Below are positions 2,259 through 28,848 of a DNA stretch of 64,000 nucleotides, piece by piece. The translations under genes and the position numbers were made by a program. This DNA is from an uncultured Nannocystaceae bacterium (GTDB lineage: Bacteria > Myxococcota_A > Bradymonadia > UBA7976 > UBA1532), in assembly GCA_964402225.1 (NCBI GenBank), contig CAYOBQ010000008.1, positions 4,293-68,292 on the forward strand, in the 5' to 3' direction. Each line of letters opens with the position of its first letter. Position 1 is the stretch's first letter. The notes under the pieces were generated by a model. That model was given only the letters and a program-made list of their open reading frames with translations, did not search any database and was not told the DNA's origin.

Positions 2259-5200
2259 CTACCGCAGCCGCCGCCTCACCACCACGAGCAGCCACCACCA
2301 CAGCCCCGCGGCCCCGGTGGTCGAGCAATCCTGGCTGGTGATCCGGACCTTCCCCACCTCGGGCCCCGCGTCCCCCGGCTCGCCGCCCGCCCCCGCCTCC
2401 GGCCCCGCGTCGGCCACCTCCATCGCCGGCACGCAGGTCGTCGGCTCCACCTCGAGGTCACACCTGAAGCCATCCTCCAGGACGCACCGAGAGGAGCACC
2501 CATCGCGCGACGCCAGGTTCCCGTCGTCACACACCTCCTCCGGCCCCACCTGCCCGTCCCCGCAGAACGGCCCCGGCGGCGCGCAGGCGTCTCCCACGCC
2601 GTCGCCATCGGAGTCGACCTGCTCGGGATCGGCCACCACCCGGCAGTCGTCCTCCCCATCGCCCACCCCGTCCCCGTCGCTGTCCCTATCGCGATAGTCC
2701 GCCGCGCCGTCGTCGTCGGTGTCCACCGCCACCGTCTCGGGATCCTCGTCCCCGGCCTCCTCCGCGTCCCCGACCCCGTCGTCGTCGCTGTCCACGTCGC
2801 GGAAGTCCGGCGTCCCGTCGTCGTCACTGTCCACCGGCGCCGTCGCCGGATCGTCATCCCCCGCCTCCTCCGCGTCCGAGATCCCGTCGTCGTCGCTGTC
2901 GGCGTCGAGCCCATCCACCACCCCGTCCCCGTCGCTGTCCACCGGCCCCTCCGCCTCCCCCGCCTCGTCTCGGTCCGACAGCGTGTCGCCGTCCGAGTCC
3001 AGCGCCCTCGGATCGAGCCCCAGCGCCTCCTCGCCCGCGTCGGTGAGCCCATCCCCGTCCGCGTCCGCGTCGCAGGCATCCCCCGCCCCGTCCCCATCCA
3101 GATCCGCCTGCTCCGCGTCCGCCACCAGCGGGCACCCGTCCTCGACATCGGGCACCCCGTCGTCGTCGTCGTCCTCATCGCACACATCCCCCGCCCCGTC
3201 CCCGTCCGCGTCGGCCTGCACGTTGGCGATCACTCGACAGTCGTCGACCGCGTCCGGGACGCCATCCCCGTCGCTGTCCTCGTCGAGGGCGTCGATCACG
3301 TCGTCCCCGTCGGTGTCCACCGCCCCCTCGACGGCGTCGCCGTATCCATCCCCATCGCTGTCCTCGTCGAGGGCGTCGATCACCCCATCACCGTCGGAGT
3401 CACGCCCCTCGGCCGCCCCCTCGAACCCATCGCTGAACCCGTCCGAGTCGCTGTCCGCCGACGCCGGGTTCAGCCCCAACTCAACCTCCCGCGCGTCACC
3501 GATCCCGTCCCCATCACGGTCGTCGTCGCACGCATCACCGGCGCCATCCCCGTCCAGATCGGGCTGCGCCGGATCCGCCACGACCCGACACCCGTCGACG
3601 GCGTCCGCCACCCCATCCCCGTCGCTGTCGAGGTCCCGGAAGTCCGCCACCCCGTCGTCGTCGCTGTCGATGCCCGTCTCCGCCGCGTCGGTGTGCCCGT
3701 CCCCGTCGCTGTCGTCGTCGAGGGCGTCTATGACCCCATCGTCGTCCACGTCCGAGGGCCTCCGCGGATCCCCGACCTCGATCGCGTCGCCGATCCCGTC
3801 CCCGTCGCTGTCCCCCGCCGCCGGGTTCAACCCCAGCGCCACCTCGACGACATCGGTGACCCCGTCCCCATCGCGGTCACCCGTGCACCGGTCGCCGACG
3901 CCGTCCGCGTCGAGATCAGCCTGCGCCGGGTTCACCGCCAGCCGGCAGTTGTCGTCCCCATCGAGCACCCCGTCGCCGTCGCTATCGGGATCGCGGAAGT
4001 CCGCCACCCCGTCGCCGTCGGTGTCCGCCGGCGGCGTCTCGAGCGCCGCGTCCCCCGCCTCGTCCACATCCGGCACCCCGTCTCCGTCGCTGTCGCCGTC
4101 GAGGGCGTCGAAGGCGCCGTCCCGATCGGTGTCCGCGGGCGCCGCCCCGTCGCCGTACTCGTCCCCATCGTCGATCCGGTCCCCATCGCTATCCGACCGC
4201 CCCGCGTTGAGCCCAAAGCGAAGCTCCAGCCCATCCGGCGCCCCGTCCCCGTCGAGATCGACCTCACACGAATCACCCACCCCGTTCCGGTCCGCGTCCC
4301 CCTGGTCGGCGTTGCGCAACAGCCGGCAGTTGTCGACCGCGTCGGGCACCCCGTCGTCGTCGCTGTCGAGGTCTCGGAAATCCGGCCGCCGATCCCCATC
4401 CGCGTCCAGCGCCGGCGTCCGCACGTCACCATCCCCGGCCTCCACGAAGTCCGGCACCCCATCCCCATCGCTGTCGTTATCGAGGGCGTCGATCACCCCG
4501 TCCCCGTCGGTGTCCGTCTCCCCCCCCCAGTCGGTCTCGACCCCGTCGTGGAGGTCGTCCCCGTCGCTGTCGATGGCCAACGGATCGAGCCCCAGCCCGC
4601 GCTCGGCGGCGTCGACGAGCCCATCGCCGTCGTTGTCGCGCCCGGGGCCATCGGCGTCGTCGCGGTCACGCCAATCGGGGATCCCGTCCCCGTCGGCGTC
4701 GCCGCGCCCCTCCTCGGAATCGGGCAGCCCATCCCCGTCGCTGTCGGCATCCAGCGCGTCGATCGCGCCATCCCCATCGCTGTCGACGGCGAGCCCCCCG
4801 TCGCTCTCGACCCCATCGTCGATCCCGTCCCCATCGCTGTCGGCCCGCGTCGGATCGGTCCCCAACTCAGCCTCCTGCGCGTCGGTGAGGCCGTCGCGAT
4901 CCAGATCGGCCTCGGCGCCCGCGTCCAGGTAGTTCGGGAGCCCGTCGCCGTCGTCGTCCCCGAGCCCCTCGTCGGCGTCGTCGAGCCGATCCCCGTCGCT
5001 GTCCCGATCGCGCCACGCCGGCCGGCCGTCGTCGTCGAGATCGGCCCCGAAGCGCTCGGCGTCGGCGCGCTCCCGGAGGGTCGGGATGCCATCGCCATCG
5101 TCGTCGGCGTCGCGGTAGTCGCCGACGCCGTCCTCGTCGAAGTCGCCGGCCCCCTCCACCGCGTCGGCGATCCCATCGTCGTCGCTGTCGGTGTCGAGGG

Positions 5201-6521
5201 CGTCGATCCGGCCGTCGCCGTCGGTGTCGCCCGGCGCCTCGAAGCCGTCGTCGAGGCCGTCGCCGTCGCTGTCGCGGCGGGCGGGATCGGTCCCCGTCTC
5301 GCAGCGCTCCACGCCGTCGCTCAGCCCGTCGCCGTCGGCGTCTCCGTCGGGTGTCAGGCGCAGGACGAAGAACGGGCTGCGCACGCGGCGCAGCGCGACG
5401 GTGGTGACCATGAGCCCCTCGTTCCCCTTGCCGGCGTTGTCGAAGGCGCCCCATGCGCGGGCGTTCTGGTTCGGCGCCGCGGCGACGTCTGGGGGACCCG
5501 AGGGCAGCCCGTCGCGGGGGGACCGCGCGCGACCGATCTGGCCGTCGGGCATGGGTCGGGCCTCGCCCTGTAGCGGCGTGTCGTCCCAGAACATCGGCAG
5601 CGGTGCGCGGGCCCCGTTGGCGTCGATGCGGAAGGCGCGCAGCCCCGGGAAGAGCGTCTCGACATCTTCGGCCACGAAGGAGACGCCGCCCACGTCGTGG
5701 ATGACCTGGCAGATGGGCTCGCCGGCGGGCAGCGCCCCGGGCCAGGGGACGCGGTGCACGCCGACGTCGGCGGCCCCCCAGAAGACGAAGTCGGCGGCGG
5801 GATCGATGCGCTCGTCACCGTCCACATCGCAGGCGACGACGTAGCCGCCGGCGGCGTCGACGGTGAAGACGAACTCGCCCTCGCGGGCGCCCGCGCAGTC
5901 CGCGGCGGGGACGAAGGCCGCGTCCCGGACCTCGGCCTCGGGAGCGGCCCCCGAAGGTCCCGGCGGGCGAAGATAGAGATCGAGGTCCGGCGCGGGGGCG
6001 AACGCGCCGACCGGGAGGGAGCGCGGCGAGCCGGAGGGGGCGGCGGCGACGTAAAACGCCCCCCCGGCGAGCCCGGCGAAGCGCAGCTCGATGACCGCCT
6101 CGGCCTCGTCGTCGAGGGGCCGGCGCGCGTAGAAGCTCGCCGAGATCGCGGCGTCGACGCCGAAGCCCTCGGCGCCGATGAACCACTGACGGCTGTGCAC
6201 CCGCCCGCTGGTGTCGATGGCGCCTGCGACGCGTAGATCCCACGGGCCCACCTGCGCCGCCGTGAGGTGCGCGGTGTAGGTGCCGGCGGTCGGGGGGACG
6301 AGCCGGTCGCCGGGCTCGAGGGGGCCTGCGGGCTGGCCTTCGGGATCGAGCAGCTCCAGGGTGCCGACGCCGCGCCAGGCGATGCGCTCGACCGCCGGAT
6401 CGAGCACATCGACGGAGATCCGGGTGGCCTGGAGGAGCCGAATGTTGTCGCCGATCTGGGCGCTCCCGTCGGCGAGGGCCGCGCCGGACGAGAGCGTCAG
6501 GAAGAAGAGGAGCCGCCGCAC
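2259..6521 (-). CDS. Giant secreted thrombospondin type-3 (TSP3) repeat protein. Signal peptide, about 400-aa N-terminal domain, dozens of Ca-binding DxDxDGxxDxxD repeats, a myxococcal Cys-rich repeat, and a MYXO-CTERM-like tail
   Basis: 1420-aa ORF. MRRLLFFLTLSSGAALA signal. Pervasive DSDGDGVPD/DTDGDGV/DNCRLxxNxxQxDxDxDGxGD motifs. CGDGQVGPEEVCDDGNLASRDGCSSRCVLEDGFRC near the C-terminus. Ends ...CSTTGAAGLWWWLLVVVRRRLR (Cys, Gly-rich stretch, hydrophobic helix, Arg cluster). The overlapping + ORFs 1611..5573 and 2719..4932 are Ser/Pro-rich antisense artefacts. Confidence 0.85.
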   Translation of the reverse strand: MRRLLFFLTLSSGAALADGSAQIGDNIRLLQATRISVDVLDPAVERIAWRGVGTLELLDPEGQPAGPLEPGDRLVPPTAGTYTAHLTAAQVGPWDLRVAGAIDTSGRVHSRQWFIGAEGFGVDAAISASFYARRPLDDEAEAVIELRFAGLAGGAFYVAAAPSGSPRSLPVGAFAPAPDLDLYLRPPGPSGAAPEAEVRDAAFVPAADCAGAREGEFVFTVDAAGGYVVACDVDGDERIDPAADFVFWGAADVGVHRVPWPGALPAGEPICQVIHDVGGVSFVAEDVETLFPGLRAFRIDANGARAPLPMFWDDTPLQGEARPMPDGQIGRARSPRDGLPSGPPDVAAAPNQNARAWGAFDNAGKGNEGLMVTTVALRRVRSPFFVLRLTPDGDADGDGLSDGVERCETGTDPARRDSDGDGLDDGFEAPGDTDGDGRIDALDTDSDDDGIADAVEGAGDFDEDGVGDYRDADDDGDGIPTLRERADAERFGADLDDDGRPAWRDRDSDGDRLDDADEGLGDDDGDGLPNYLDAGAEADLDRDGLTDAQEAELGTDPTRADSDGDGIDDGVESDGGLAVDSDGDGAIDALDADSDGDGLPDSEEGRGDADGDGIPDWRDRDDADGPGRDNDGDGLVDAAERGLGLDPLAIDSDGDDLHDGVETDWGGETDTDGDGVIDALDNDSDGDGVPDFVEAGDGDVRTPALDADGDRRPDFRDLDSDDDGVPDAVDNCRLLRNADQGDADRNGVGDSCEVDLDGDGAPDGLELRFGLNAGRSDSDGDRIDDGDEYGDGAAPADTDRDGAFDALDGDSDGDGVPDVDEAGDAALETPPADTDGDGVADFRDPDSDGDGVLDGDDNCRLAVNPAQADLDADGVGDRCTGDRDGDGVTDVVEVALGLNPAAGDSDGDGIGDAIEVGDPRRPSDVDDDGVIDALDDDSDGDGHTDAAETGIDSDDDGVADFRDLDSDGDGVADAVDGCRVVADPAQPDLDGDGAGDACDDDRDGDGIGDAREVELGLNPASADSDSDGFSDGFEGAAEGRDSDGDGVIDALDEDSDGDGYGDAVEGAVDTDGDDVIDALDEDSDGDGVPDAVDDCRVIANVQADADGDGAGDVCDEDDDDDGVPDVEDGCPLVADAEQADLDGDGAGDACDADADGDGLTDAGEEALGLDPRALDSDGDTLSDRDEAGEAEGPVDSDGDGVVDGLDADSDDDGISDAEEAGDDDPATAPVDSDDDGTPDFRDVDSDDDGVGDAEEAGDEDPETVAVDTDDDGAADYRDRDSDGDGVGDGEDDCRVVADPEQVDSDGDGVGDACAPPGPFCGDGQVGPEEVCDDGNLASRDGCSSRCVLEDGFRCDLEVEPTTCVPAMEVADAGPEAGAGGEPGDAGPEVGKVRITSQDCSTTGAAGLWWWLLVVVRRRLR

Positions 6522-6595
6522 GGTGCGCAGATGGTGTCATACCGGGGCGATTCGGTGCATTAATATGGCCGAGCTTTCCCCTTCATCGACGCGGC

Positions 6596-19944: not shown

Positions 19945-21714
19945 ATGGCTTGGGTGTGTCCCCGCTGCGAGCAGCCGCCCCCCGATGGCGCGACGCGCTG
20001 TCCGCTCCACGACCTCTACGCGGTCGACGCCCGCGAGCTCGAGCGGCGCGCCCAGGCCCCGCTCCTCGGGCGGGTCGTCGGCGACCGCTACGCGCTGTTG
20101 GGCTTCCTCGGCGCCGGCGGGATGGGCGTCGTCTATCGGGCCGCGCAGCTCCCCATTCGACGCCCCGTCGCCCTCAAGATCCTGAACCCGGAGTACTCCC
20201 GGACCGAGGACATCCGCCGGCGCTTCGAGCGTGAGGCCCGCGCGATGTCACGCTTGCAGAGCGTCCACACAGCCACCCTCTACGACTACGGCGTCGACCC
20301 CGTCACGGGGGCGTTCATGGTCTTGGAGCTCGTGGAGGGCGAGAGCCTGCGCGAGCGGCTCGACCGCAAGGGGCCGCTCGCTGCGTCCCGCGTGGCCGAT
20401 GTCATCGACGGCGTCGCGCGCGCCCTGCACGAGGCCCACGCCTGCGGGATCATCCACCGAGACGTCAAGCCGGGGAACATCTTGCTGGCGCGCACCCCCG
20501 AGGGGGAGCCGCTGGCGAAGATGATCGACTTCGGCATCGCCCGCATCGACGACGCCACCCGGACCCGCACGGGCCTCGCCGCAGGCACCCCTGAGTACAT
20601 GGCGCCGGAGCAATGCGACCCGAACCGCGCGGGGGTCGCCGACGCGCGGACCGACGTCTACGCCCTCGCGACGACCGCCTACGTCGCGCTGTGCGGTGAG
20701 CCGCCCTTCACCTCGGACCGCCCGCTCTCGATCCTGCTCGCGAAGCTGCGCCAGCCACCGCCCCCCTTGCCCAAGGGGCTGGGCCTGAAGCGGCTGGACG
20801 TCCCACTGCAACGGGCCATGGCGCGCAAGCCCGACGACCGGCCCCCGGACGCGCCCTCCTTCGCCCGCGAGTTCCGCGCGGCCTTGGCCGGCCAGACCGG
20901 GCGCGGCGGCGGGGGCTTTCTGGTGGGCGTCGGACTGGGCACCGCCGTCGGGATCACGCTGCTGGTGGCGCTGTGGTGGGGCGTCGACGCCGCCCCCGAG
21001 GTGGCGCCCGACGCCCAGCCCATCGCCGACGCGGCGACTCACGATGCCCCGCCTCCGGCGCCGACACCGGACGCCCACGCTCCCGACGTCCAGGTCGGAC
21101 CGGACGCGATGCACATCAGCCCCGAGGAGCTCGCCGCGACCCCCGATCCGGTGATGCACCTGGCCACCACGCCGCGCTCGACGGTGATCGTCGATGGGGT
21201 GCCGATGGGCGAGAGCAGCGCGGAGGCCGGCGCCCTCGAGGTGCCCCTCGATCCGGCGACGGCCCACACCATCCGAATCGAGAAGGCGGGGTTCCGGTCG
21301 GTCGAGTTCGAGGTGCCGACGGCCGCCTGGACCAGCGGGGTGGCGCCGAGCAGAGCGATGGACTTGGAGCGCCTCCGAGCCCCCCGCAAGCGAGACCTCA
21401 CGATCGGGTCGCCCCGCATCGACGGGGCCTGCGACCGACGGTCCGTCCGGCGGTCGATCCGGCGGCGGCGTTCGGCCCTCCAGGGGTGCTACCTCAAGTG
21501 GTCGGTCCGCAGCCGTATCCGTCGCGCGCGAGCGACCCTCGTGTGGGGCATCGACGTCGGCGGCGGCGCGATCAACGGCGACGTCGTCCACACGACGTTG
21601 GGCGACCGAGCCGCCGAGCGGTGTTTCCGCGGGGTCATCCAGGGCATTCGATTCCGCAAGCCCGGAAGCGGCACCTGCCGGGTGCGAATGAAGATCAGTC
21701 TGCGGAGAGAATAG
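19945..21714 (+). CDS. Ser/Thr protein kinase with N-terminal zinc ribbon, TM helix, PEGA domain and AgmX/PglI-type C-terminal domain
   Basis: 589 aa. CPRCEQ...CPLH, then GDRYALLGFLGAGGMGVVYRA...ALKIL (Gly loop and Lys). HRDVKPGNILL and DFGIA catalytic and activation motifs, APE. TM LVGVGLGTAVGITLLVALWW. PEGA-like TVIVDGVPMGE...TIRIEKAGFRSVEFEV. C-terminal CxxxC...RFRKPGSGTCRVRMKISL. Confidence 0.9.
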   Translation: MAWVCPRCEQPPPDGATRCPLHDLYAVDARELERRAQAPLLGRVVGDRYALLGFLGAGGMGVVYRAAQLPIRRPVALKILNPEYSRTEDIRRRFEREARAMSRLQSVHTATLYDYGVDPVTGAFMVLELVEGESLRERLDRKGPLAASRVADVIDGVARALHEAHACGIIHRDVKPGNILLARTPEGEPLAKMIDFGIARIDDATRTRTGLAAGTPEYMAPEQCDPNRAGVADARTDVYALATTAYVALCGEPPFTSDRPLSILLAKLRQPPPPLPKGLGLKRLDVPLQRAMARKPDDRPPDAPSFAREFRAALAGQTGRGGGGFLVGVGLGTAVGITLLVALWWGVDAAPEVAPDAQPIADAATHDAPPPAPTPDAHAPDVQVGPDAMHISPEELAATPDPVMHLATTPRSTVIVDGVPMGESSAEAGALEVPLDPATAHTIRIEKAGFRSVEFEVPTAAWTSGVAPSRAMDLERLRAPRKRDLTIGSPRIDGACDRRSVRRSIRRRRSALQGCYLKWSVRSRIRRARATLVWGIDVGGGAINGDVVHTTLGDRAAERCFRGVIQGIRFRKPGSGTCRVRMKISLRRE

Positions 21715-21724
21715 GAAGGACCCG

Positions 21725-22117
21725 ATGCGAACGTTGTTGCTCATCCTCGCGTGGCCCCTGCTGGCGGCGCTGCCCCCCTTGTCCCCCGACGATCTGAAGC
21801 GGGACGCGTCGTTGGTGGTGGTCGCCGAGGTCCTCCAGGTCTTCGATCGCGAGCACCGACGCGACGGGACCTCCACCGATCGGCGCTTCCTGCTCGAGCT
21901 GAAGGTCAAGTCCGTGTCGAAGGGTGAGGTGAAGGTCGGGAGCCTGCTCTACGCCCGCGCCTGGCAGCCGGGGAGGCGCCCCGAGGGATGGGTCGGACCG
22001 CAGGGCCAAAACGTCGTCCCCGGACCCGGCGATGTGGTGCGCCTCTTCCTCCGGCGGGCGTCGGACGGGGGCCTCGCCCTGCTCTCCCCGAACGGCGTCG
22101 AGCCGGCGAAACTTTGA
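21725..22117 (+). CDS. Small secreted hypothetical protein (130 aa)
   Basis: MRTLLLILAWPLLAALPPLSPDD signal peptide. Non-repetitive. AGGAAGGA lies upstream. Confidence 0.5.
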   Translation: MRTLLLILAWPLLAALPPLSPDDLKRDASLVVVAEVLQVFDREHRRDGTSTDRRFLLELKVKSVSKGEVKVGSLLYARAWQPGRRPEGWVGPQGQNVVPGPGDVVRLFLRRASDGGLALLSPNGVEPAKL

Positions 22118-22178
22118 CTCGCACCTAAACCTACATCAACCTACAGACAACGAACACGTGAATCGAAGGAGGCGCGCG

Positions 22179-22496
22179 ATGCGCGAGCGCCGTTTGGAGC
22201 GACGAGTCCCGTTCACCGGGCGGGTCTTCGAGTTGGTCGAGGGCGGCCGCATTCCCTGCGGGACCGTGAACATCGGTGAGGGGGGCGTCTACGTGCGCCG
22301 TCACGAGGGGGGCGTGCTGCTCGACGGGGAGTATGTCTGGCTCGAGGTCCAGCTCCCTGGGGATCCCGAGTCGGTGTGGGCCCACGGGCAGGTGGTCGAG
22401 CAGGTCACGGAGACCTTCCACGACGCCGCCGCGATTCAGTTCCACGGGATGGCCCGAGGCGACCGCGAACGCCTACGCGAGTTCATGGCGGCCTGA
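22179..22496 (+). CDS. PilZ domain protein (c-di-GMP binding)
   Basis: ATG preceded 6 nt upstream by AGGAGG. MRERRLERR (RxxxR) and NIGEGGVYV (D/NxSxGG-like) motifs. ORF 22032.. was trimmed to this start. Confidence 0.7.
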   Translation: MRERRLERRVPFTGRVFELVEGGRIPCGTVNIGEGGVYVRRHEGGVLLDGEYVWLEVQLPGDPESVWAHGQVVEQVTETFHDAAAIQFHGMARGDRERLREFMAA

Positions 22497-22621
22497 GGAG
22501 GCGTCGATCAGGCGATCGCAGCCACCGCGCGAACTCAACCTGCGCTGACAACTCGTGAACGATGACGGTTGTACCGGCTGAGCCGACCGGCATGTCAGGA
22601 GCCCGGACTCTCTCAGCTCGG

Positions 22622-23009
22622 CTACGGCGCGGCGGCGGCGTTCAGCGCCTCGACCAGCAGATGCACCGTCGTCGAAGGGTTGTGTCTCTCCGGGTTCGGG
22701 GCGGGATCGCTCGCGAGAAGTCTTGTCGCGTTTCGGATGGCATCTGCCTGTCGGGAGGCGAGCCGCCCCGCTACGAACGCGGGACAACGCCCCGCAATCT
22801 GCGCGGGCCACCACAACCCGGAAGCGCCGAAAGTAGTTCGGCTCGGTCTTCTCGCCCTCGCACACGATCAGGAAGCGGAGCCGTTTCTCGCGACGGTCTA
22901 CGACGCGTTCTTGAAGGCCACCGACTCCACGGCGCCCACGTCTTGCTTCGCGCTTCTCCCTACGGCGCGCCTCCTTCTCGAGCTCTCGCTTGTTCGAGAC
23001 CTTGCTCAC
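22622..23009 (-). pseudogene. RloB-like (TOPRIM-type) protein remnant, frameshifted and internally deleted
   Basis: GTG at 23009 overlaps the upstream stop (GTGA). N-terminus ...RLRFLIVCEGEKTEPNYF is the RloB signature. The RloB C-terminal signature AIRNATRLLASDPAPNPERHNPSTTVHLLVEAL lies in a different frame (ORF 22622..22816). Together these span only about 130 codons, so the TOPRIM core is missing. Confidence 0.55.
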
Positions 23010-24092
23010 TCGGTCGGCCCGGAGATGTCCAGGCCATCGAGCCCCGAGAGGAGCGGGATCGCGCCGTACCGTCCCAGGAGGTAGTTCCCCTTGTAGTCTT
23101 CGTCGACCACCAGGACAATCCCCTCCCGCAGCGTTTGAATGAGGGGCCCGGCCAGCGCGATCAGGCGCTGGGTCCCCGCGGACTCTCGCTCCAGGGCGTC
23201 CCATTCCAGATGACCCTCTCGGTCCTCTCCGAACACGGCGTGACGAGTCGACACCTTCACGGCGCTCTCGTTGTCGAGCGAGTCGACCAGTGAGTCAGGC
23301 ACCCCGGTGTCGCGGAGCTGCCGGAGGAGGTCGTCAAGCTCAGCCGTGCTCGCCTGACGTGCTCGAATCTCAGAGAAGCCCCAGGTCCAGCGAGCGCAGG
23401 AAGGCGACCACCTCACCTCGCGAAGGCCCGTCGATCAGCTCAGAGACAGTGACCCCCAGGAGGTAGTCGTCGTTCAACCCAGAGACCAGCCGCAGCGTGC
23501 CGCGGAACCAGCCCAGCACCCGGGACGCGATCTGTCCGTCGAATTGCGCGCAGACCGACAAGAAGAGCGCGTTCTTCCGGGTCCTGGTGTCCAGCCCCCT
23601 GCCCTCCGCCCGGAAGCCTGGGCCCAGTTTGAACTCTTGCCCGTCCCGCTCGAATAGCCTGGATTCCTGCCGTCTCCCCTCGGCGACCCAGAAGAGCCAC
23701 TCGGCCACCACCCGGTCCGCGGTGATCTCGAAGCCGTACCGGAACCGGCTCCCCTCGTGTAGGAACACCAACTCGAAGGTGCTGGGCTCCTCTGCGAACT
23801 CGCCATGGAGGAGGAACGGGTCAGCGGGGAGCTTGTCTCCTGCCTGGCCCTCCCGGGCGGAGTCAACCACGACCTGTTGCATGGTCTTCAGCGCTCGAAA
23901 GAGGTTGGTCTTCCCACCGGAGTTCGCGCCGTACACAGCCGCGCTGTGGAGCACCGCCGGATCACCCGAGCTGCGTCGGATCTCAGGCTGCGCGTGGGCA
24001 TGGTTGCGTGGATTCAGCGAGCCCTCGAGCAGGCTCAGGGTCTTCTCGTCACGGAACGATCGGGAATTCCCCACGGTGAATTCGATCAGCAT
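23006..24092 (-). pseudogene. AAA_21-family (RloA/OLD-like ABC-type) ATPase, disrupted by a frameshift at a G4 run near 23377..23385
   Basis: N-part ORF 23370..24092 has the Walker A loop AAVYGANSGGKTNLFRALKTM. C-part ORF 23006..23416 has SAGTQRLIALAGPLIQTLREGIVLVVDE (signature-like region plus Walker B). The two ORFs overlap by 47 nt. Deleting one G in ctggGGCttctc fuses ...LRSLDLG to FSEIRARQ.... Confidence 0.65.
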
Positions 24093-24286
24093 CAGGCCTC
24101 TAAACGGGTTGATTCGTGACCATCTCTCAAGATGAACGATGTCATCGAGGTCGGCGCCGGTCTGCCCTTTGTCGCTCGAGGATGTAGTAGGCCACTTCTC
24201 GGCCGCGCTCGCCGAACGCGGCAGCGCCAGCCTCGGGGTCGCTACGATTCATCAGTTGCCGCTCTTCACCGCGCCCGGTCGATGAT

Positions 24287-24970
24287 CTATGGACCCCTCT
24301 CGAGCGCCGCCCGAAGCGGGCAGTCGGGGCGAGCGGGCTCACCCCGACGATAGCGCTCGAGCAGGCGGCGTGAGGTGCGCGCCAGCTCGCGGCGAACCTC
24401 CCTGCGCTCGCCGGCCACCCGCTCGATCCGCATCCGGTCGTAGGCGGTCGTCGCGTGGCGCATCCAGGCGATGACGGCGGCCTCGGCGCGCTCCTCGATG
24501 GGGATCCGCTTGGTGCGCGCGACGGTGCCGCTCCCGACCGGGGTCGCATGGGCCGCCACGACGTTGGCCAGGCGCCCCGCGAGCTCGGCGTGGTCGGCGT
24601 CGAAGCCGAGGAAGGCCAGGACCGCGCCGTGGAAGTCCTCGACGTAGGCCGACTGCGCTCGCTCCCGTCGCTGGGCTTGCTGCACGCGCCGCTTCGCGTA
24701 GGCGGGCGTCGCCCGCTCGGCGTCGAGGGCGGCGCGCACGGCGTCGATCCGCTCCTTCGGGGCCCACACGCCGAGGGACTGAATCCGCCGACCGCGCTTC
24801 GCCTTGACGGTCCAGCTCGGGCCGCCGGCCTTCACCCGGCGCGTCCAGGTGGCGTCCCCAGGTGGCAGAAAGGCCCACCCCTCGGGCGGCTTCACCGGTC
24901 CGTCCTCCGGGGTCCGCAACCGGTTCAGCTTGCCCCCGACGGCCCACACCTCACGTGACGTCTCCGACAT
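24287..24970 (-). CDS. DUF2293 domain protein
   Basis: Start MSETSREVWAVGGKLNRLRTP inside ORF 24287..25393. The upstream part of that ORF is an Arg-rich artefact reading through the GE-hexamer repeat region. Confidence 0.6.
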   Translation of the reverse strand: MSETSREVWAVGGKLNRLRTPEDGPVKPPEGWAFLPPGDATWTRRVKAGGPSWTVKAKRGRRIQSLGVWAPKERIDAVRAALDAERATPAYAKRRVQQAQRRERAQSAYVEDFHGAVLAFLGFDADHAELAGRLANVVAAHATPVGSGTVARTKRIPIEERAEAAVIAWMRHATTAYDRMRIERVAGERREVRRELARTSRRLLERYRRGEPARPDCPLRAALERGP

Positions 24971-25044
24971 CGGCGCAAGATACCTTCGACCTGACCCCCG
25001 CCGATAGGACACATTGCGCTCGAAGCAGCACCTTGGAGGGGTAG

Positions 25045-28000
25045 ATGCGCGCTCATTGGTGGCCGGTGATCGGCCTGCTCGCGACCGCCTGTGTGAACGA
25101 CGCGCCGCCGGCGGATGATCCCGACTCGGTCGTGGTCGTCCTGGACGGCGGCTCGTCCGATGGCGGCGAGGGCGAAGGCGAAGGCGAAGGCGAAGGCGAA
25201 GGTGAAGGTGAGGGTGAACGGGACATGGGTCCGCCGCCGGACGCCCAACCGGACGCCTTCGCGGGGCCCGTGCCAGTCGACGACTGCGCTGGCGCCTGCG
25301 CGCGCTACCAACGCTGCGGACGGGTAGACGAGCTCTTCGGCGGGCCCGACGCCTGCCAGGCCGTGTGTGAGGAGGCCTCCTTCGATGGCCCACCGGAGGC
25401 CTTCTTCGAGTGTGTCAGCGTGGAGCAATGCGGACTGCTCCAGCTCTGCCGCCTGCCGGTGCCTCCAGCGCTCACGTGCGACGAGGTCTGCGCGCGCGCG
25501 AACGAGTGCGGCGTCGAGGTCCCCTTCGACTGCGCCACCGAGTGCGCCCGCCACGAGGACGGCTACGCCGCCTGCGGTGAGCGCAACCGGCGGGCGTGCG
25601 ATCCCGCGGGCTTCCAAGGCTGCCTCGGCGAGGAGATCTACACCGGCTGCGCCCGTCGCTGCGAGCGCGCCGTCGCGTGCAACATCGTGCTCGAGGAGGG
25701 CTGCCTCACGGAGTGCCTGGAAGAGCAGTTTGCAGGTGACGCGCTGCGCCGGCGGCGCGCCGAGCAGCGAACGCAATGCGTGGGCCGTGCCCCGGACGAC
25801 TGCGTCGCCGTCGATGCGTGCCTCAACCCCCAGGACAACCCGCCCCGACCCGCCGCCAACCTCGAGACCTTCTGTCGTCTCTGGCGGGAGTGCGGGTTCG
25901 AGCTCGAGATCCCGTGCGATGCGATCTGGGACGAGTTCGCCCGAGAGCCCGACATGGCCCAGTGCGTGGTCGACAGCCTCGACGCGCAGTGCCCGCGAGA
26001 CCCCTTCGAGGCCTTCGAGCGGTGCTTCGAGGGTGGCGGCGGGCCGCGGGGCCCCGGCTGCATCGAGCTGTGCGAGGCGATGGACCTCTGCGAGGAGCTC
26101 CCCGACGGAGAGGACCGCGGCGGCTGCCTGCAGCGCTGCAACGTAGCGCTCCAGAGCCGTGACCCCAACGACTCGGAGCGGCAACGGGCCCGGTTCCCCT
26201 GCGGCGTCGCGGGCGACTGTGTCGAGTTGGCGGAGTGCCTGGAGGCGACGGATCCCGCGACCGCCTGCGCCACGCATTGCGACGCGCTCGCGGCCTGCGG
26301 GATCGCCGCGGAGGGTTGCGCCGCCGACTGCGACGCCGAGTTCGTCCGTGCCCGCCAGGTCGCGTGGCGCGAGTGTGTAGCGGCGGCCGCGGACTGCGAC
26401 GCCACGCGCGCGTGCGCACCGCCGGCCCCCCTGCCCTGCGACGTCCAATGCCAGGCCGTCGCCGCCTGCGGCTTCGCCCAGCCCGGCTGCGAAGCGGCGT
26501 GCGACAACGCTCACTTCGACGATCCCGACCGCGCCTCGCGCGTCTTCGCCTGCGTCCTCACGGCCCCCGAGTGCCGGGGTGGGCGCGGCGAGCACTCCGT
26601 CGCCCTGTGCCTCAACGACCCCGGCGTCGGCGGCGACGATTGCCTCGGCTTCTGCCGCGCGACGAGCGACGCCTGCGACCCCGAGGCGGGCCGCGATCTG
26701 GCGACCTGCCTCGCCGCGTGTGGGAACGGCTTCGGCGGGGACGACGCCCTGCGCTTCGAGGTCGCCGCAGAGTGCATGGACCAGCGAGGCGCCGACGCCG
26801 ACTGCGACGAGCTCGCGGGGTGCCTGCCGGGGGAGATCGCGCCGGACTGCGGCGCCTGGTGCGGAAGCCTGGAGGCCTGCGGGCTGGCCGACGATGGCTG
26901 CGCGGGCGCCTGCGCCGACGATGTGCTGGCCACGCTGAGAGCGCTGCGCCACGGCACCTGTGTCGCCGACGCCGGCGACGACTGCGAGGAGGTGCGCGCC
27001 TGCGTGGCGGTGGAGATCGGGGAGGAGCCGGAGCGCCCGACGCGGGACGCCTTCTGCGCGGCCTACGCCCAGTGCAACTTCATCGACGAGGAGTTCCGCT
27101 GCGAGGACCTCTGGCGCGAGCTCGGGGGAAACCTCGAGGCCGAGCGCTGCGCGATGATCGAGGTCCAGCGCTGTCCGCGCTTCCCCTTCGAGATCCTGGA
27201 CCGCTGCATCGAGGGCGGCGAGCCACCCCCGCCCGCCGAGGCGTCGGCCTGCGAGGCGCTGTGCGAGGCGCGGGCCCTGTGCGGGGACGTAGAGCGGGCC
27301 CGCGCCTGCGCCCTCGACTGCGCCGGGGCCTTTCGTGACGGCGACGTCGGTGACCGGATCCGGCTGCGCGCGACCCTGGAGTGCGCGGCGGCGTTGAGCT
27401 GCGGCGCGCTCGCGGACTGCCTCGCGGAGCGGTCGCCCGCCGGGCAATGCGCCCGCCATTGTGGACAGCTCGCCGGCTGCGGCCTCGCGCCGGACGACTG
27501 CGTCGAGAGCTGCGACGAGACCTTCGTGCGCGGACGCCAGCGGGCGTGGCTCGGCTGCACCGACGACGCCGCCGACGACTGTGAGGCGCTGGCGGTCTGC
27601 GAGCCTGGCCCCGGCGTGCCCTGCGGCGACTACTGCGCGCGCCTCGAGACGTGCGCGCTCGCGCCGGCCGACTGCGAGACGGCCTGCGACGACCAGCACT
27701 TCGAGGATCCCACCGCCAGCGCGATCCGGGTGGTCTGCGCGCTGACGGCGCCGACCTGCGAGGCTCCACCGGCACACAATGTCGCCGCGTGCCTGCGCGG
27801 CGACCCGCTGGGGCTGCCCGGACGGGAGTGCGTGACGTACTGCCGCGCCGTCACCGAGTGCGACGAGGGCTCCGAGCGGACGCTCGACGACTGCGTCAAC
27901 GCCTGCGCCCGCGGATTCGAGGGCGAGGACGGGCTGCGCTTCGCCGCCGCCTCCGACTGCCTGCGCGGCTTGCTTCCCGACGTCGATTGCCGACCCCTGG

Positions 28001-28848
28001 GGGCGTGCATGCCCGACGAGATCGTGATCGACTGCGCGGCGCACTGCGACGCGCTCGAAGCGTGCCGCGCAGCCCCCGACGATTGCCCCGCCCACTGCGC
28101 GGCGGAGGTCGAGGTGGGCGCCGCCGGGTGCGTCGCCGACGCCCTCCGCGTGAACCGTGGCTGCCGCCGCGTCGCCGAGTGCGCGGGCTTCGAGGTGCCG
28201 GCACCCAGCGACGCGTGCGAGCGGCTGTGCGCGAGCCGACGTGCCTGCGACTTCGCCGTCGATCCCTTCCTCTGCGAGCTCGACTGCGCACCCGACGAGG
28301 ACGGGACGCCGGTGCGCGCCGCCTGCGCCGAGGTCACGCCGTGCGAGGACCTGGGCGCGTGCACCGACGGTGACGCGCCGCGAATCGATGGGTGCGGCGA
28401 TCCCTGCGAGGCCGCGGCGGAGTGTGGCGCCCTCGAAGACGCCGACGCCTGCGTGGACCTGTGTAGCGGCCGGGACCTCAGCCCGCGCAGCGGCGACGAC
28501 TATGTCGCTGAGCTCGGCGGGTGCGTCGAAGGCGCGGCTGACGCCCCCGCCTGCGTGGCGTGCTTCGACGTGGGCCACGACTGCGCCGACGCCTGCTTCC
28601 ACCTCCAACGCTGCGGCCTCTTCGAGCCCGGCGGCGACTGTGTGGGCGGCTGCGAGCAGGCCAGCGTCCAGGATCCGGTGGGCAACGCCGAGGTCATCGA
28701 GTGCCTCGTCGACTCGCTGGACCCCAACTGCGACTTCAACGGCCTCGAGCGCTGCGTCGAGGGCACCAACGGAGGCGAGGGCGAGGGCGAGGGCGAGGGA
28801 GAAGGTCGACCGGAGCCCCCGCCGCCCCCGGTGCCCGACGGTCGCTAG
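25045..28848 (+). CDS. Giant cysteine-rich tandem-repeat lipoprotein (1,267 aa) with GE-repeat linkers at both ends
   Basis: MRAHWWPVIGLLATAC lipobox, then (GE)9. At least two well-conserved modules of about 330 aa (roughly aa 240-600 and 620-960), each with about 40 Cys in recurring spacings (FCRLWRECGFELEIPCDAIWDEF / FCAAYAQCNFIDEEFRCEDLWREL; CATHCDALAACGIAAEGCAADCDAEFVRARQVAW / CARHCGQLAGCGLAPDDCVESCDETFVRGRQRAW). Further degenerate copies occur at both ends. C-terminal GEGEGEGEGEGRPEPPPPPVPDGR. The antisense ORF 24925..28608 was rejected. Confidence 0.75.
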   Translation: MRAHWWPVIGLLATACVNDAPPADDPDSVVVVLDGGSSDGGEGEGEGEGEGEGEGEGERDMGPPPDAQPDAFAGPVPVDDCAGACARYQRCGRVDELFGGPDACQAVCEEASFDGPPEAFFECVSVEQCGLLQLCRLPVPPALTCDEVCARANECGVEVPFDCATECARHEDGYAACGERNRRACDPAGFQGCLGEEIYTGCARRCERAVACNIVLEEGCLTECLEEQFAGDALRRRRAEQRTQCVGRAPDDCVAVDACLNPQDNPPRPAANLETFCRLWRECGFELEIPCDAIWDEFAREPDMAQCVVDSLDAQCPRDPFEAFERCFEGGGGPRGPGCIELCEAMDLCEELPDGEDRGGCLQRCNVALQSRDPNDSERQRARFPCGVAGDCVELAECLEATDPATACATHCDALAACGIAAEGCAADCDAEFVRARQVAWRECVAAAADCDATRACAPPAPLPCDVQCQAVAACGFAQPGCEAACDNAHFDDPDRASRVFACVLTAPECRGGRGEHSVALCLNDPGVGGDDCLGFCRATSDACDPEAGRDLATCLAACGNGFGGDDALRFEVAAECMDQRGADADCDELAGCLPGEIAPDCGAWCGSLEACGLADDGCAGACADDVLATLRALRHGTCVADAGDDCEEVRACVAVEIGEEPERPTRDAFCAAYAQCNFIDEEFRCEDLWRELGGNLEAERCAMIEVQRCPRFPFEILDRCIEGGEPPPPAEASACEALCEARALCGDVERARACALDCAGAFRDGDVGDRIRLRATLECAAALSCGALADCLAERSPAGQCARHCGQLAGCGLAPDDCVESCDETFVRGRQRAWLGCTDDAADDCEALAVCEPGPGVPCGDYCARLETCALAPADCETACDDQHFEDPTASAIRVVCALTAPTCEAPPAHNVAACLRGDPLGLPGRECVTYCRAVTECDEGSERTLDDCVNACARGFEGEDGLRFAAASDCLRGLLPDVDCRPLGACMPDEIVIDCAAHCDALEACRAAPDDCPAHCAAEVEVGAAGCVADALRVNRGCRRVAECAGFEVPAPSDACERLCASRRACDFAVDPFLCELDCAPDEDGTPVRAACAEVTPCEDLGACTDGDAPRIDGCGDPCEAAAECGALEDADACVDLCSGRDLSPRSGDDYVAELGGCVEGAADAPACVACFDVGHDCADACFHLQRCGLFEPGGDCVGGCEQASVQDPVGNAEVIECLVDSLDPNCDFNGLERCVEGTNGGEGEGEGEGEGRPEPPPPPVPDGR
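25165..25218 (+). repeat. Tandem hexanucleotide repeat (GGCGAR/GGTGAR x9) encoding (Gly-Glu)9
   Basis: ggcgagggcgaaggcgaaggcgaaggcgaaggcgaaggtgaaggtgagggtgaa. A second (GE)n block lies at 28771..28806. Confidence 0.9.

What the first reader, a model, noticed from the sequence alone, without database searches (positions are those of the whole stretch)
22622..24092. Decayed abortive-infection/PARIS-like defence pair: frameshifted AAA_21 ATPase plus RloB-like TOPRIM gene with internal deletion
A Walker-A ATPase of the RloA/OLD-like AAA_21 type is followed, with GTGA stop/start overlap, by a gene whose N-terminus (FLIVCEGEKTEPNYF) and C-terminus (AIRNATRLL...NPSTTVHLLVEAL) both match RloB-like proteins. 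However the RloB gene is in two different frames and is only about 130 codons long in total, and the ATPase is broken at a G4 run. Such ATPase plus TOPRIM pairs are anti-phage systems. This one looks like a relic, indicating past phage pressure and subsequent loss.
Basis: partly seen in the sequence, partly recalled or inferred. Interest (0 to 1): 0.6.

Follow-up and report, generated by a model that had tools for sequence, protein, structure and literature searches.

The report
Dead AbiL-type anti-phage gene pair
This is the broken remnant of a known two-gene anti-phage system (an ATPase plus a small nuclease). Three mutations that are fixed in the natural population inactivated it, so it is an ordinary pseudogene and not a working or new defence system.

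Summary
On the minus strand of 22622-24092 lies an AAA_21/ABC-type ATPase gene followed by an RloB-like TOPRIM gene, joined by a GTGA stop/start overlap, and both are broken.

PADLOC types the pair as AbiL (AbiLi 2.8e-36, AbiLii 5.3e-10), not PARIS. AriA scores only 1.6e-14 and there is no AriB hit.

I mapped three lesions against intact homologues (407 aa ATPase, 203 aa RloB, 46% identity):
- A +1 frameshift at a G4 run (23379-23382).
It removes the D-loop, the H-loop and 16 of 56 family-invariant residues.
- An out-of-frame loss of about 100 codons from RloB, between 22817 and 22763. It removes the DxD metal site and the conserved core.

The same sequence, with no indel differences, occurs in nine contigs from at least four (by accession eight or nine) metagenome samples. 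These come from three assembly sources and include SNP variants that carry the same lesions. The lesions are therefore real, not assembly errors.

38 of the 40 invariant ATPase residues outside the deletion survive, and codon-position GC bias is still present, so the decay looks recent.

The neighbours are ordinary chromosomal genes (PilZ, DUF2293). Verdict: a genuine but unremarkable relic of a known kind of system.

The parts
24093..24286 (-). Upstream non-coding stretch between the DUF2293 gene and the ATPase start. It contains an AGAGG ribosome-binding-like motif 4 nt before the ATG and is the presumed former promoter region.
   Evidence: Sequence read. GC drops to 0.62-0.64 here. The sigma-70 consensus scan found no promoter, so the promoter role is inferred only.
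23373..24092 (-). ATPase fragment 1 (frame A, 240 codons; stop TGA at 23372-23370). It is the N-terminal half of an AbiLi/AAA_21 ABC-type ATPase, with Walker A GANSGGKT at 23930-23907.
   Evidence: Pfam AAA_21 6e-16; PADLOC AbiLi 2.8e-36. 46% identity to residues 1-235 of the intact 407-aa homologue P0002. Codon-position GC is 0.67/0.45/0.84.
23379..23382 (-). Lesion 1: a G4 run (CCCC on the + strand) causing a +1 frameshift. The most parsimonious event is insertion of one G into GGG.
   Evidence: Frame A reads RSLDLGLL*. Frame B reads ..GFSEIRARQ.. Deleting one G gives LDLGFSEI, which aligns without a gap to LDLGIEDV of intact homologues.
23099..23377 (-). ATPase fragment 2 (frame B). It covers the variable insert, the ES.GTQ signature-like motif and Walker B (VLVVDE).
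   Evidence: tblastn against P0002 residues 223-306, 2e-10. AAA_21 profile positions 185-266 and AbiLi 4.3e-11. MAFFT alignment with 60 intact homologues.
23098..23099 (-). Lesion 2: junction of an in-frame deletion of 74 codons (about 222 bp; P0002 residues 307-380). It removes the D-loop (DARLHP), the H-loop (THDTNLL) and the DQIWF.EK...LYSL block.
   Evidence: VVDE is followed directly by DYKGNYLLGRYGAIP. 16 of the 56 invariant columns of 27 intact homologues fall inside the gap. The junction is ambiguous by 1-2 codons because a D is shared.
23006..23098 (-). ATPase fragment 3 (frame B): the C-terminal tail ..DYKGNYLLGRYGAIPLL.. and the stop TGA at 23008-23006.
   Evidence: Matches the conserved C-terminal DY..G.YGAIP motif of intact homologues.
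22818..23009 (-). RloB/AbiLii fragment 1. It has a GTG start that overlaps the ATPase stop (GTGA, 23009-23006), a basic leader, and the TOPRIM Glu motif FLIVCEGEKTEPNYF (22874-22830).
   Evidence: Pfam RloB positions 1-19 of 195 (5.1e-06). PADLOC AbiLii 5.3e-10. tblastn against L010 RloB residues 10-58, 1e-15.
22763..22817 (-). Lesion 3: the zone that contains the junction of an out-of-frame deletion of roughly 270-330 bp (L010 RloB residues about 50-158). The DxD motif (WCVFDRD) and the AYSN.AFELWYLLHF core are lost.
   Evidence: No homology in any frame across these 55 nt. The N and C fragments lie in different frames. Pfam profile positions 20-159 are unmatched.
22622..22762 (-). RloB/AbiLii fragment 2: the C-terminal ..LASRQADAIRNATRLLASDPAPNPERHNPSTTVHLLVEALN.. 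with its stop at 22624-22622.
   Evidence: Pfam RloB positions 160-195 (3.3e-05). tblastn against L010 RloB residues 159-199, 63% identity, 7e-12.

Best explanation
The locus is a pseudogenised AbiL-type defence operon. Gene 1 was an AbiLi-like ABC/AAA_21 ATPase of about 410-430 aa. Gene 2 was an AbiLii/RloB-like TOPRIM nuclease of about 200-220 aa, translationally coupled to gene 1 through a GTGA overlap.

By analogy with the related ATPase + TOPRIM system PARIS, the ancestral system probably used the ATPase as infection sensor and keeper of the nuclease. The nuclease would have been released on infection to abort it. This step is inferred, because the AbiL mechanism itself is unknown.

In its present state nothing of this can work:
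- The ATPase reading frame breaks at a G4 run after codon 236.
- Even if that were read through, the ATPase lacks 74 codons holding the D-loop and H-loop needed for ATP hydrolysis.
- The nuclease has lost about 100 central codons, including the DxD metal-binding motif, and its two remaining ends are out of frame.

The lesions are fixed in the natural population. The decay appears recent, because the surviving codons still look like a selected gene.
For: Shown:
- Family assignment: AAA_21 6e-16, AbiLi 2.8e-36 (4.7e-51 for the frame-repaired translation), RloB N- and C-terminal matches, AbiLii 5.3e-10.
- The intact homologous pair in L010 is typed AbiLi 4.7e-108 plus AbiLii 8.6e-32 and shares the 4-nt gene overlap.
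- Lesion map from tblastn and MAFFT: frameshift at 23379-23382; P0002 residues 307-380 absent; RloB residues about 50-158 absent.
- 16 of 56 family-invariant ATPase residues are deleted. 38 of the remaining 40 are kept.
- Codon-position GC remains gene-like, 0.67/0.45/0.84.
- Authenticity: identity is 99.8-100% with no gaps over 2.2-2.3 kb in seven of the nine contigs; two shorter matches of 1.1-1.2 kb are also gapless but do not span every lesion. The contigs come from JGI, ENA and Logan assemblies of several samples. Three of them differ by 1-5 SNPs yet share the lesions they span.
- No protein between 47% and 100% identity, and no longer 'repaired' version, exists among 5.8 billion clustered proteins.
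- Family norm: 58 of 67 homologous loci with enough downstream sequence have a near-full-length RloB of about 200 aa directly after the ATPase.

From the literature:
- AbiL is grouped with PARIS as ABC ATPase + TOPRIM/OLD nuclease.
- In PARIS, AriA sequesters AriB, which on release cleaves tRNA-Lys.
- Whether AbiL works the same way is an open question (PMC13064643).
Against: - No expression data exist. The 240-codon N-terminal ORF keeps its ATG and an RBS-like AGAGG, so a truncated protein could still be made.
- No close relative with an intact pair at the same site was found. The deletions are therefore mapped only at protein level against homologues of 46% identity, and their exact sizes and junctions are approximate.
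- The window ATPase is the most divergent sequence in the comparison set. It is substituted at 23% of the >=90%-conserved columns, against at most 17% for intact members. This could mean a divergent lineage rather than decay.
- Anti-phage function is established only for the Lactococcus AbiL prototype, not for this clade.
Confidence: 0.9

Rival explanations
1. Assembly or sequencing artefact: the organism really carries an intact AbiL pair, and the frameshift and gaps arose during assembly.
For: The frameshift sits in a homopolymer (G4), a classic error site. One contig (L005) departs from the window inside the relic, at 23221, which shows that assemblies of this region can be imperfect.
Against: - Nine contigs from JGI, ENA and Logan assemblies of several samples agree base for base, with no indel.
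- Contigs carrying SNP differences have the same lesions.
- Two of the three lesions are deletions of about 220 bp and 270-330 bp, which homopolymer errors cannot produce.
- No repaired protein version exists in the 15-billion-protein collection.
Confidence: 0.02
2. A functional, naturally shortened or recoded variant. Programmed frameshifting at the G run would yield a 361-aa ATPase, and a 'mini-RloB' would be made from the two fragments.
For: - The ATPase deletion is exactly in frame.
- 38 of the 40 invariant residues outside it are kept.
- The start codon, the RBS-like motif and the GTGA coupling are intact.
Against: - The deletion removes the D-loop, the H-loop and 16 invariant residues.
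- RloB lacks the DxD motif and about half of its conserved core, and its halves are in different frames.
- None of the 58 paired homologous loci has a short RloB.
- G4 followed by CTTC is not a known slippery site (my own knowledge).
Confidence: 0.03
3. A relic of a PARIS (AriA/AriB) system or of another ATPase + TOPRIM family (Gabija, class 1/2 OLD), rather than AbiL.
For: The PADLOC AriA model hits the ATPase fragment (1.6e-14) and the intact homologue (6e-41). Weak GajA and ATPase-Toprim hits appear for the intact homologue. The general architecture is shared (PMC13064643).
Against: - AbiLi scores far better than AriA in every case (2.8e-36 vs 1.6e-14; 4.7e-108 vs 6e-41).
- The second gene matches only AbiLii/RloB. 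No AriB, GajB or fused OLD model hits it at E<=1.
Confidence: 0.04

Closest known systems
AbiL (AbiLi + AbiLii) of Lactococcus lactis, as modelled in PADLOC/DefenseFinder
   Same: It is a two-gene operon of an ABC/Rad50-like ATPase followed by a small TOPRIM (OLD-like) protein. Both window genes find the AbiLi and AbiLii profiles as their best hits. The genes are adjacent, co-oriented and overlapping.
   Different: - The window copy is non-functional: a frameshift, no D-loop or H-loop, and no DxD motif.
- It belongs to a distant clade. The nearest intact relatives are 46% identical and come from environmental MAGs such as cyanobacteria and Armatimonadota.
- It is chromosomal in a 71% GC bacterium, whereas the prototype is plasmid-borne in a Firmicute.
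- The AbiL mechanism itself is still unknown (PMC13064643).
PARIS (AriA + AriB) of E. coli
   Same: It has the same overall logic, an ABC ATPase sensor plus a TOPRIM nuclease effector. The ATPase cores are related: the AriA profile hits at 1.6e-14 for the fragment and 6e-41 for the intact homologue.
   Different: The effector here is RloB-type (PF13707), not AriB, and no AriB hit was found. The review reports no significant sequence similarity between AbiLii and AriB and poor structural superposition (PMC13064643). There is no evidence that AbiL is triggered by Ocr-like proteins or cleaves tRNA-Lys.
RloA/RloB 'restriction-linked ORFs' of Campylobacter jejuni type I R-M loci
   Same: The second gene carries the Pfam RloB domain named after this system, and it is paired with an ATPase.
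   Different: No hsd or other restriction-modification genes lie next to the window locus. Its neighbours are PilZ and DUF2293 genes.
OLD-family nucleases / Gabija GajA
   Same: It combines ABC-type ATPase chemistry with TOPRIM nuclease chemistry.
   Different: In OLD and GajA the two domains are fused in one polypeptide, and Gabija adds a helicase. Here they are separate genes and no helicase is present. GajA hits are only marginal, 4.4e-05 for the intact homologue.

Membership tests
AbiL (AbiLi/AbiLii) | Gene 1 matches the AbiLi ATPase profile better than any other defence ATPase profile | tested here: met
   AbiLi 2.8e-36 (N fragment), 4.3e-11 (middle fragment) and 4.7e-51 (frame-repaired translation). 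The next best model, AriA, scores 1.6e-14 and 1.3e-19.
AbiL (AbiLi/AbiLii) | Gene 2 matches AbiLii / Pfam RloB (PF13707) | tested here: met
   AbiLii 5.3e-10. RloB profile positions 1-19 and 160-195 score 27.2 and 24.6 bits, each below the 31.5-bit cut-off alone. tblastn against an intact RloB gives 1e-15 and 7e-12.
AbiL (AbiLi/AbiLii) | The two genes are adjacent, on the same strand, ATPase first | tested here: met
   GTGA stop/start overlap at 23009-23006. L010 has the same arrangement, as do 58 of 67 homologous loci.
AbiL (AbiLi/AbiLii) | Complete ABC ATPase catalytic set (Walker A, Walker B, D-loop, H-loop) in one reading frame | tested here: not met
   Walker A and Walker B are present but lie in different frames. 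The D-loop, the H-loop and 16 of 56 invariant residues are deleted.
AbiL (AbiLi/AbiLii) | Complete TOPRIM core (conserved Glu plus DxD) in gene 2 | tested here: not met
   The Glu motif CEGEKTE is kept. The DxD motif (WCVFDRD) and the AFELWYLLHF core are deleted, and the two halves are out of frame.
AbiL (AbiLi/AbiLii) | Confers resistance to phage | not testable with these tools
   This needs cloning and phage challenge. It has been shown only for the Lactococcus prototype (Deng et al. 1999, as cited in PMC13064643).
PARIS (AriA/AriB) | Effector gene of the AriB type | tested here: not met
   No AriB model hits either RloB fragment at E<=1, nor the intact RloB homologues at E<=0.001.
PARIS (AriA/AriB) | ATPase is best matched by AriA | tested here: not met
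   AriA scores 1.6e-14 against AbiLi 2.8e-36 for the fragment, and 6e-41 against 4.7e-108 for the intact homologue.
RloA/RloB restriction-linked pair | Embedded in a type I restriction-modification locus | tested here: not met
   The flanking genes encode PilZ, DUF2293, a Ser/Thr kinase and a Cys-rich secreted protein. No hsdR/M/S domains were found.
OLD family / Gabija | ATPase and TOPRIM fused in one protein (with a GajB helicase partner in Gabija) | tested here: not met
   The genes are separate here and in the intact homologues. GajA hits are marginal (4.4e-05), and no helicase gene is adjacent.

The most novel reading that the evidence does not exclude
The 240-codon N-terminal ATPase fragment may no longer be junk. 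It keeps its start codon, an RBS-like motif, Walker A and nearly all invariant residues, and it is identical in all sampled strains. It could be expressed as a stand-alone protein with a new role, for example a dominant-negative or decoy partner for incoming AbiL-type systems, or a nucleotide-binding regulator. A weaker variant: the G4 run acts as a slippage site, but this would be pointless given the downstream deletions.
Probability: 0.03. Interest if true: 0.45.

Novelty: new member of a known kind. Interest (0 to 1): 0.15.

Why it matters
The finding matters little on its own, because defence systems turn over quickly and relics are expected. It has three minor uses.
1. It is a clean, population-verified example of how an ATPase + TOPRIM pair decays, with both sensor and effector hit by three separate lesions. 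Gene callers still report its 240-aa ORF as an 'AAA_21 ATPase', which could inflate defence-gene counts in metagenomes.
2. It shows that AbiL-type pairs occur in high-GC, Myxococcota-like marine or environmental bacteria.
3. If AbiL is toxin-antitoxin-like, as PARIS is, surveys of relics such as this one and the IS-split copy in L091 could show whether the effector has to be lost before the ATPase.

Tried and rejected
- **G-run length variants.** An exact-pattern scan of metagenome contigs for any G-run length at the frameshift site found nothing, not even the G4 allele. The pattern does match the window. That collection therefore lacks this organism, and the test is uninformative.
- **Synteny in related genomes.** A genome-contig scan with the neighbouring DUF2293 protein found no close relative. 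The best hits were 61-68% identity in Planctomycetota and Myxococcota MAGs.
- **Organism name.** The listing of cluster members for the 240-aa protein returned no accession or name.
- **Other libraries.** NCBIfam gave no hit for the fragments or the intact homologues. PDB sequence searches with the intact ATPase and RloB found no solved relative. Rfam found nothing in 20000-27000.
- **Local signals.** Promoter and terminator scans found nothing. No tRNA gene occurs in the window.
- **Repeats at the junctions.** The repeat search found no repeats flanking the relic or sitting at the deletion junctions. The 13-nt perfect repeat at 23073/23455 is about what chance allows.
- **Shared breakpoint.** I considered a recurrent natural break near residue 240, because several homologues are 240-280 aa long. 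I rejected it. These end at different points, many are cut by contig ends, and P0013 is interrupted by an IS element.
- **Antisense ORFs.** The + strand ORFs 22562-23293 and 23497-24135 lack the gene-like GC3 pattern and are shadows of the minus-strand genes.

Full report
**What is in the sequence.** The window is 71% GC. On the minus strand between 24092 and 22622 there are four homology-bearing pieces.

- ORF 24092..23370 (240 aa) begins MLIEFTVGN and carries a Walker A motif (GANSGGKT, 23930-23907). It hits Pfam AAA_21 at 6e-16 (59.8 bits against a cut-off of 27) and the PADLOC AbiLi model at 2.8e-36.
- In a different frame, 23377..23006 continues the same protein family (AAA_21 profile positions 185-266; AbiLi 4.3e-11).
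- A GTG at 23009 overlaps the ATPase stop (GTGA, 23009-23006). It opens a reading frame whose product contains FLIVCEGEKTEPNYF and matches positions 1-19 of the 195-position Pfam RloB profile (AbiLii 5.3e-10).
- In yet another frame, 22762..22622 matches RloB positions 160-195.

**Mapping the damage.** The 240-aa fragment retrieved 175 relatives. Intact ones are 400-420 aa, and the best is 46% identical (P0002, 407 aa). P0002 sits in a MAG contig (L010) directly followed, with a 4-nt overlap, by a 203-aa RloB gene. PADLOC types that intact pair as AbiLi (4.7e-108) plus AbiLii (8.6e-32).

tblastn of this pair against the window, a MAFFT alignment with 60 intact ATPases and the addition of the frame-repaired window protein to a 27-sequence alignment give a consistent map.

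- **Lesion 1.** ATPase residues 1-235 are in frame A and residues 236-306 in frame B. The switch lies exactly at CTGGGGC (G4 at 23379-23382). Removing one G gives LDLG-FSEI, which aligns without a gap to LDLGIEDV, so a single-base insertion is the most economical cause.
- **Lesion 2.** P0002 residues 307-380 have no counterpart. Walker B (VLVVDE) is followed directly by the C-terminal DYKGNYLLGRYGAIP motif, with the junction at 23099|23098. This in-frame loss of 74 codons removes the D-loop (DARLHP), the H-loop (THDTNLL) and 16 of the 56 residues that are invariant in intact relatives.
- **Lesion 3.** RloB residues about 50-158 are missing, including the TOPRIM DxD motif (WCVFDRD) and the AYSN.AFELWYLLHF core. 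The two flanks are out of frame, and the junction lies within 22817-22763.

**Are the lesions real?** The exact 240-aa product is recorded on 15 contigs. Nine places were retrieved, from JGI (four metagenomes), ENA (four BioSamples) and Logan (one run). Some JGI, ENA and Logan records may come from the same physical samples, so at least four samples are distinct.

BLASTN of window 22100-24400 against them gives 99.8-100% identity with zero gaps over 2.2-2.3 kb for seven of them. The other two give shorter gapless matches: L009 (1.1 kb) ends at its contig end, and L005 (1.2 kb) diverges from the window at 23221. Three contigs differ by 1-5 SNPs and still carry the lesions they span.

Two of the lesions are deletions of more than 200 bp, which homopolymer errors cannot create. 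No longer 'repaired' protein, and no relative between 47% and 100% identity, exists in the clustered collection.

**How old is the decay?** Outside the deletion the ATPase keeps 38 of 40 family-invariant residues, and the two changes (L47V, N182D) are conservative. There are no extra stop codons in the homologous frames. The codon-position GC pattern is still gene-like, 0.67/0.45/0.84. These points indicate that purifying selection ended recently.

The fragment is nevertheless the most divergent member of the comparison set: 23% of the >=90%-conserved columns are substituted, against at most 17% for intact proteins. That may reflect its distant lineage or some relaxation. The locus GC (0.62-0.67) is lower than its flanks (0.70-0.77). 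This fits a horizontally acquired cassette that has been partly ameliorated, which is an inference.

**Context.** The relic fills the interval between a PilZ-domain gene (22179-22496, +) and a DUF2293 gene (24287-24970, -). Further out lie:

- an RHS/YD-repeat protein;
- a Ser/Thr kinase;
- a 1267-aa Cys-rich protein;
- an acyltransferase, a BamA-like protein, PhoD and a tail-specific protease.

I saw no integrase, transposase, tRNA gene or other defence gene. No Rfam family and no consensus promoter or terminator was found in the region. It is a lone cassette in an ordinary chromosome, probably of a Myxococcota-like bacterium. That assignment is an inference from the DUF4215 and TSP3 repeats, the kinase content and the best DUF2293 matches.

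**What it was and how it worked.** The family norm is a coupled pair. Of 67 metagenomic loci with an intact ATPase homologue and at least 650 nt of downstream sequence, 58 carry a near-full-length RloB directly behind it, and none has a short version.

A 2026 review groups AbiL with PARIS as ABC/Rad50-like ATPase plus TOPRIM/OLD nuclease systems. In PARIS, AriA holds AriB inactive until a phage trigger releases it to cleave tRNA-Lys. The review states that it remains to be determined whether AbiL and RloAB act in the same way (PMC13064643).

My best reading is therefore that the ancestor was an AbiL-type sensor-ATPase and nuclease-effector module. The family assignment is shown; the mechanism is inferred by analogy. 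The present locus is dead on both sides: there is no continuous ATPase frame, no D-loop or H-loop, and no DxD motif in the nuclease.

**Family membership.** The locus meets the profile and gene-order criteria for AbiL but fails the integrity criteria, so it is an AbiL relic and not an AbiL system. It is not PARIS in the strict sense: AriA scores far below AbiLi and no AriB model hits. It is not linked to restriction-modification genes like Campylobacter RloAB. It is not a fused OLD/Gabija protein. No relative of the intact family has a solved structure detectable by sequence.

**Side observations.**
- A homologue in a 2.9-Mb contig (L091) is split by an ISAZ013-type transposase while its RloB remains intact. 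Knock-outs of this family recur by different routes.
- One contig (L005) leaves the window sequence at 23221 and ends in 259 nt of unrelated DNA containing an inverted repeat. I could not tell a chimeric join from a strain rearrangement.

**Verdict.** Biologically this is an ordinary, recently decayed defence cassette of a known kind. Interest is low.

Noticed in passing
L005:5873-6131 (junction corresponds to window 23221): One ENA contig (SAMN10231894) is identical to the window down to 23221, inside the ATPase relic. It then ends in 259 nt of unrelated DNA with a glyoxalase-like fragment and a 72-nt imperfect inverted repeat (GTCATTCCCGCGAAAGCGGGAAT...). This tail has no match anywhere in the 64-kb window. 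It is either a chimeric assembly or a strain rearrangement.
   Followed up: partly
L091:4001-7342: A homologous AbiLi ATPase in a 2.9-Mb contig is split into 248-aa and 189-aa pieces by an inserted ISAZ013-type DDE transposase, while the downstream 217-aa RloB is intact (AbiLii 2.4e-32). If AbiL were toxin-antitoxin-like, this state should be toxic unless the insertion is polar.
   Followed up: partly
window 13129-19938 (+) and 19945-21714 (+): A protein of about 2150-2270 aa with RHS/YD-shell repeats (polymorphic-toxin type) is followed immediately by a Ser/Thr protein kinase, a few kb from the relic.
   Followed up: no
window 25045-28848 (+): A 1267-aa Cys-rich protein with no Pfam hit carries (GE)n runs near both ends. 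Its internal sequence looks repetitive, with recurring Cys-containing segments.
   Followed up: no
window 23073-23085 and 23455-23467: There is a perfect 13-nt direct repeat, CCCAGGAGGTAGT. Both copies encode YLLG in the ATPase reading frames. About 0.2 such repeats are expected by chance, and it does not lie at a deletion junction.
   Followed up: partly
window 2262-6536 (-): A 1425-aa protein has thrombospondin type 3 repeats and a DUF4215 Cys-rich repeat. This type is common in Myxococcota and hints at the taxonomic origin of the window.
   Followed up: no
one search hit list (P0010, P0024, P0111 and others): Several homologous ATPases on long contigs (0.05-5 Mb) are only 230-275 aa long. 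This suggests that truncated copies of this family are common in genomes and are annotated as plain 'ATP-binding protein'.
   Followed up: partly
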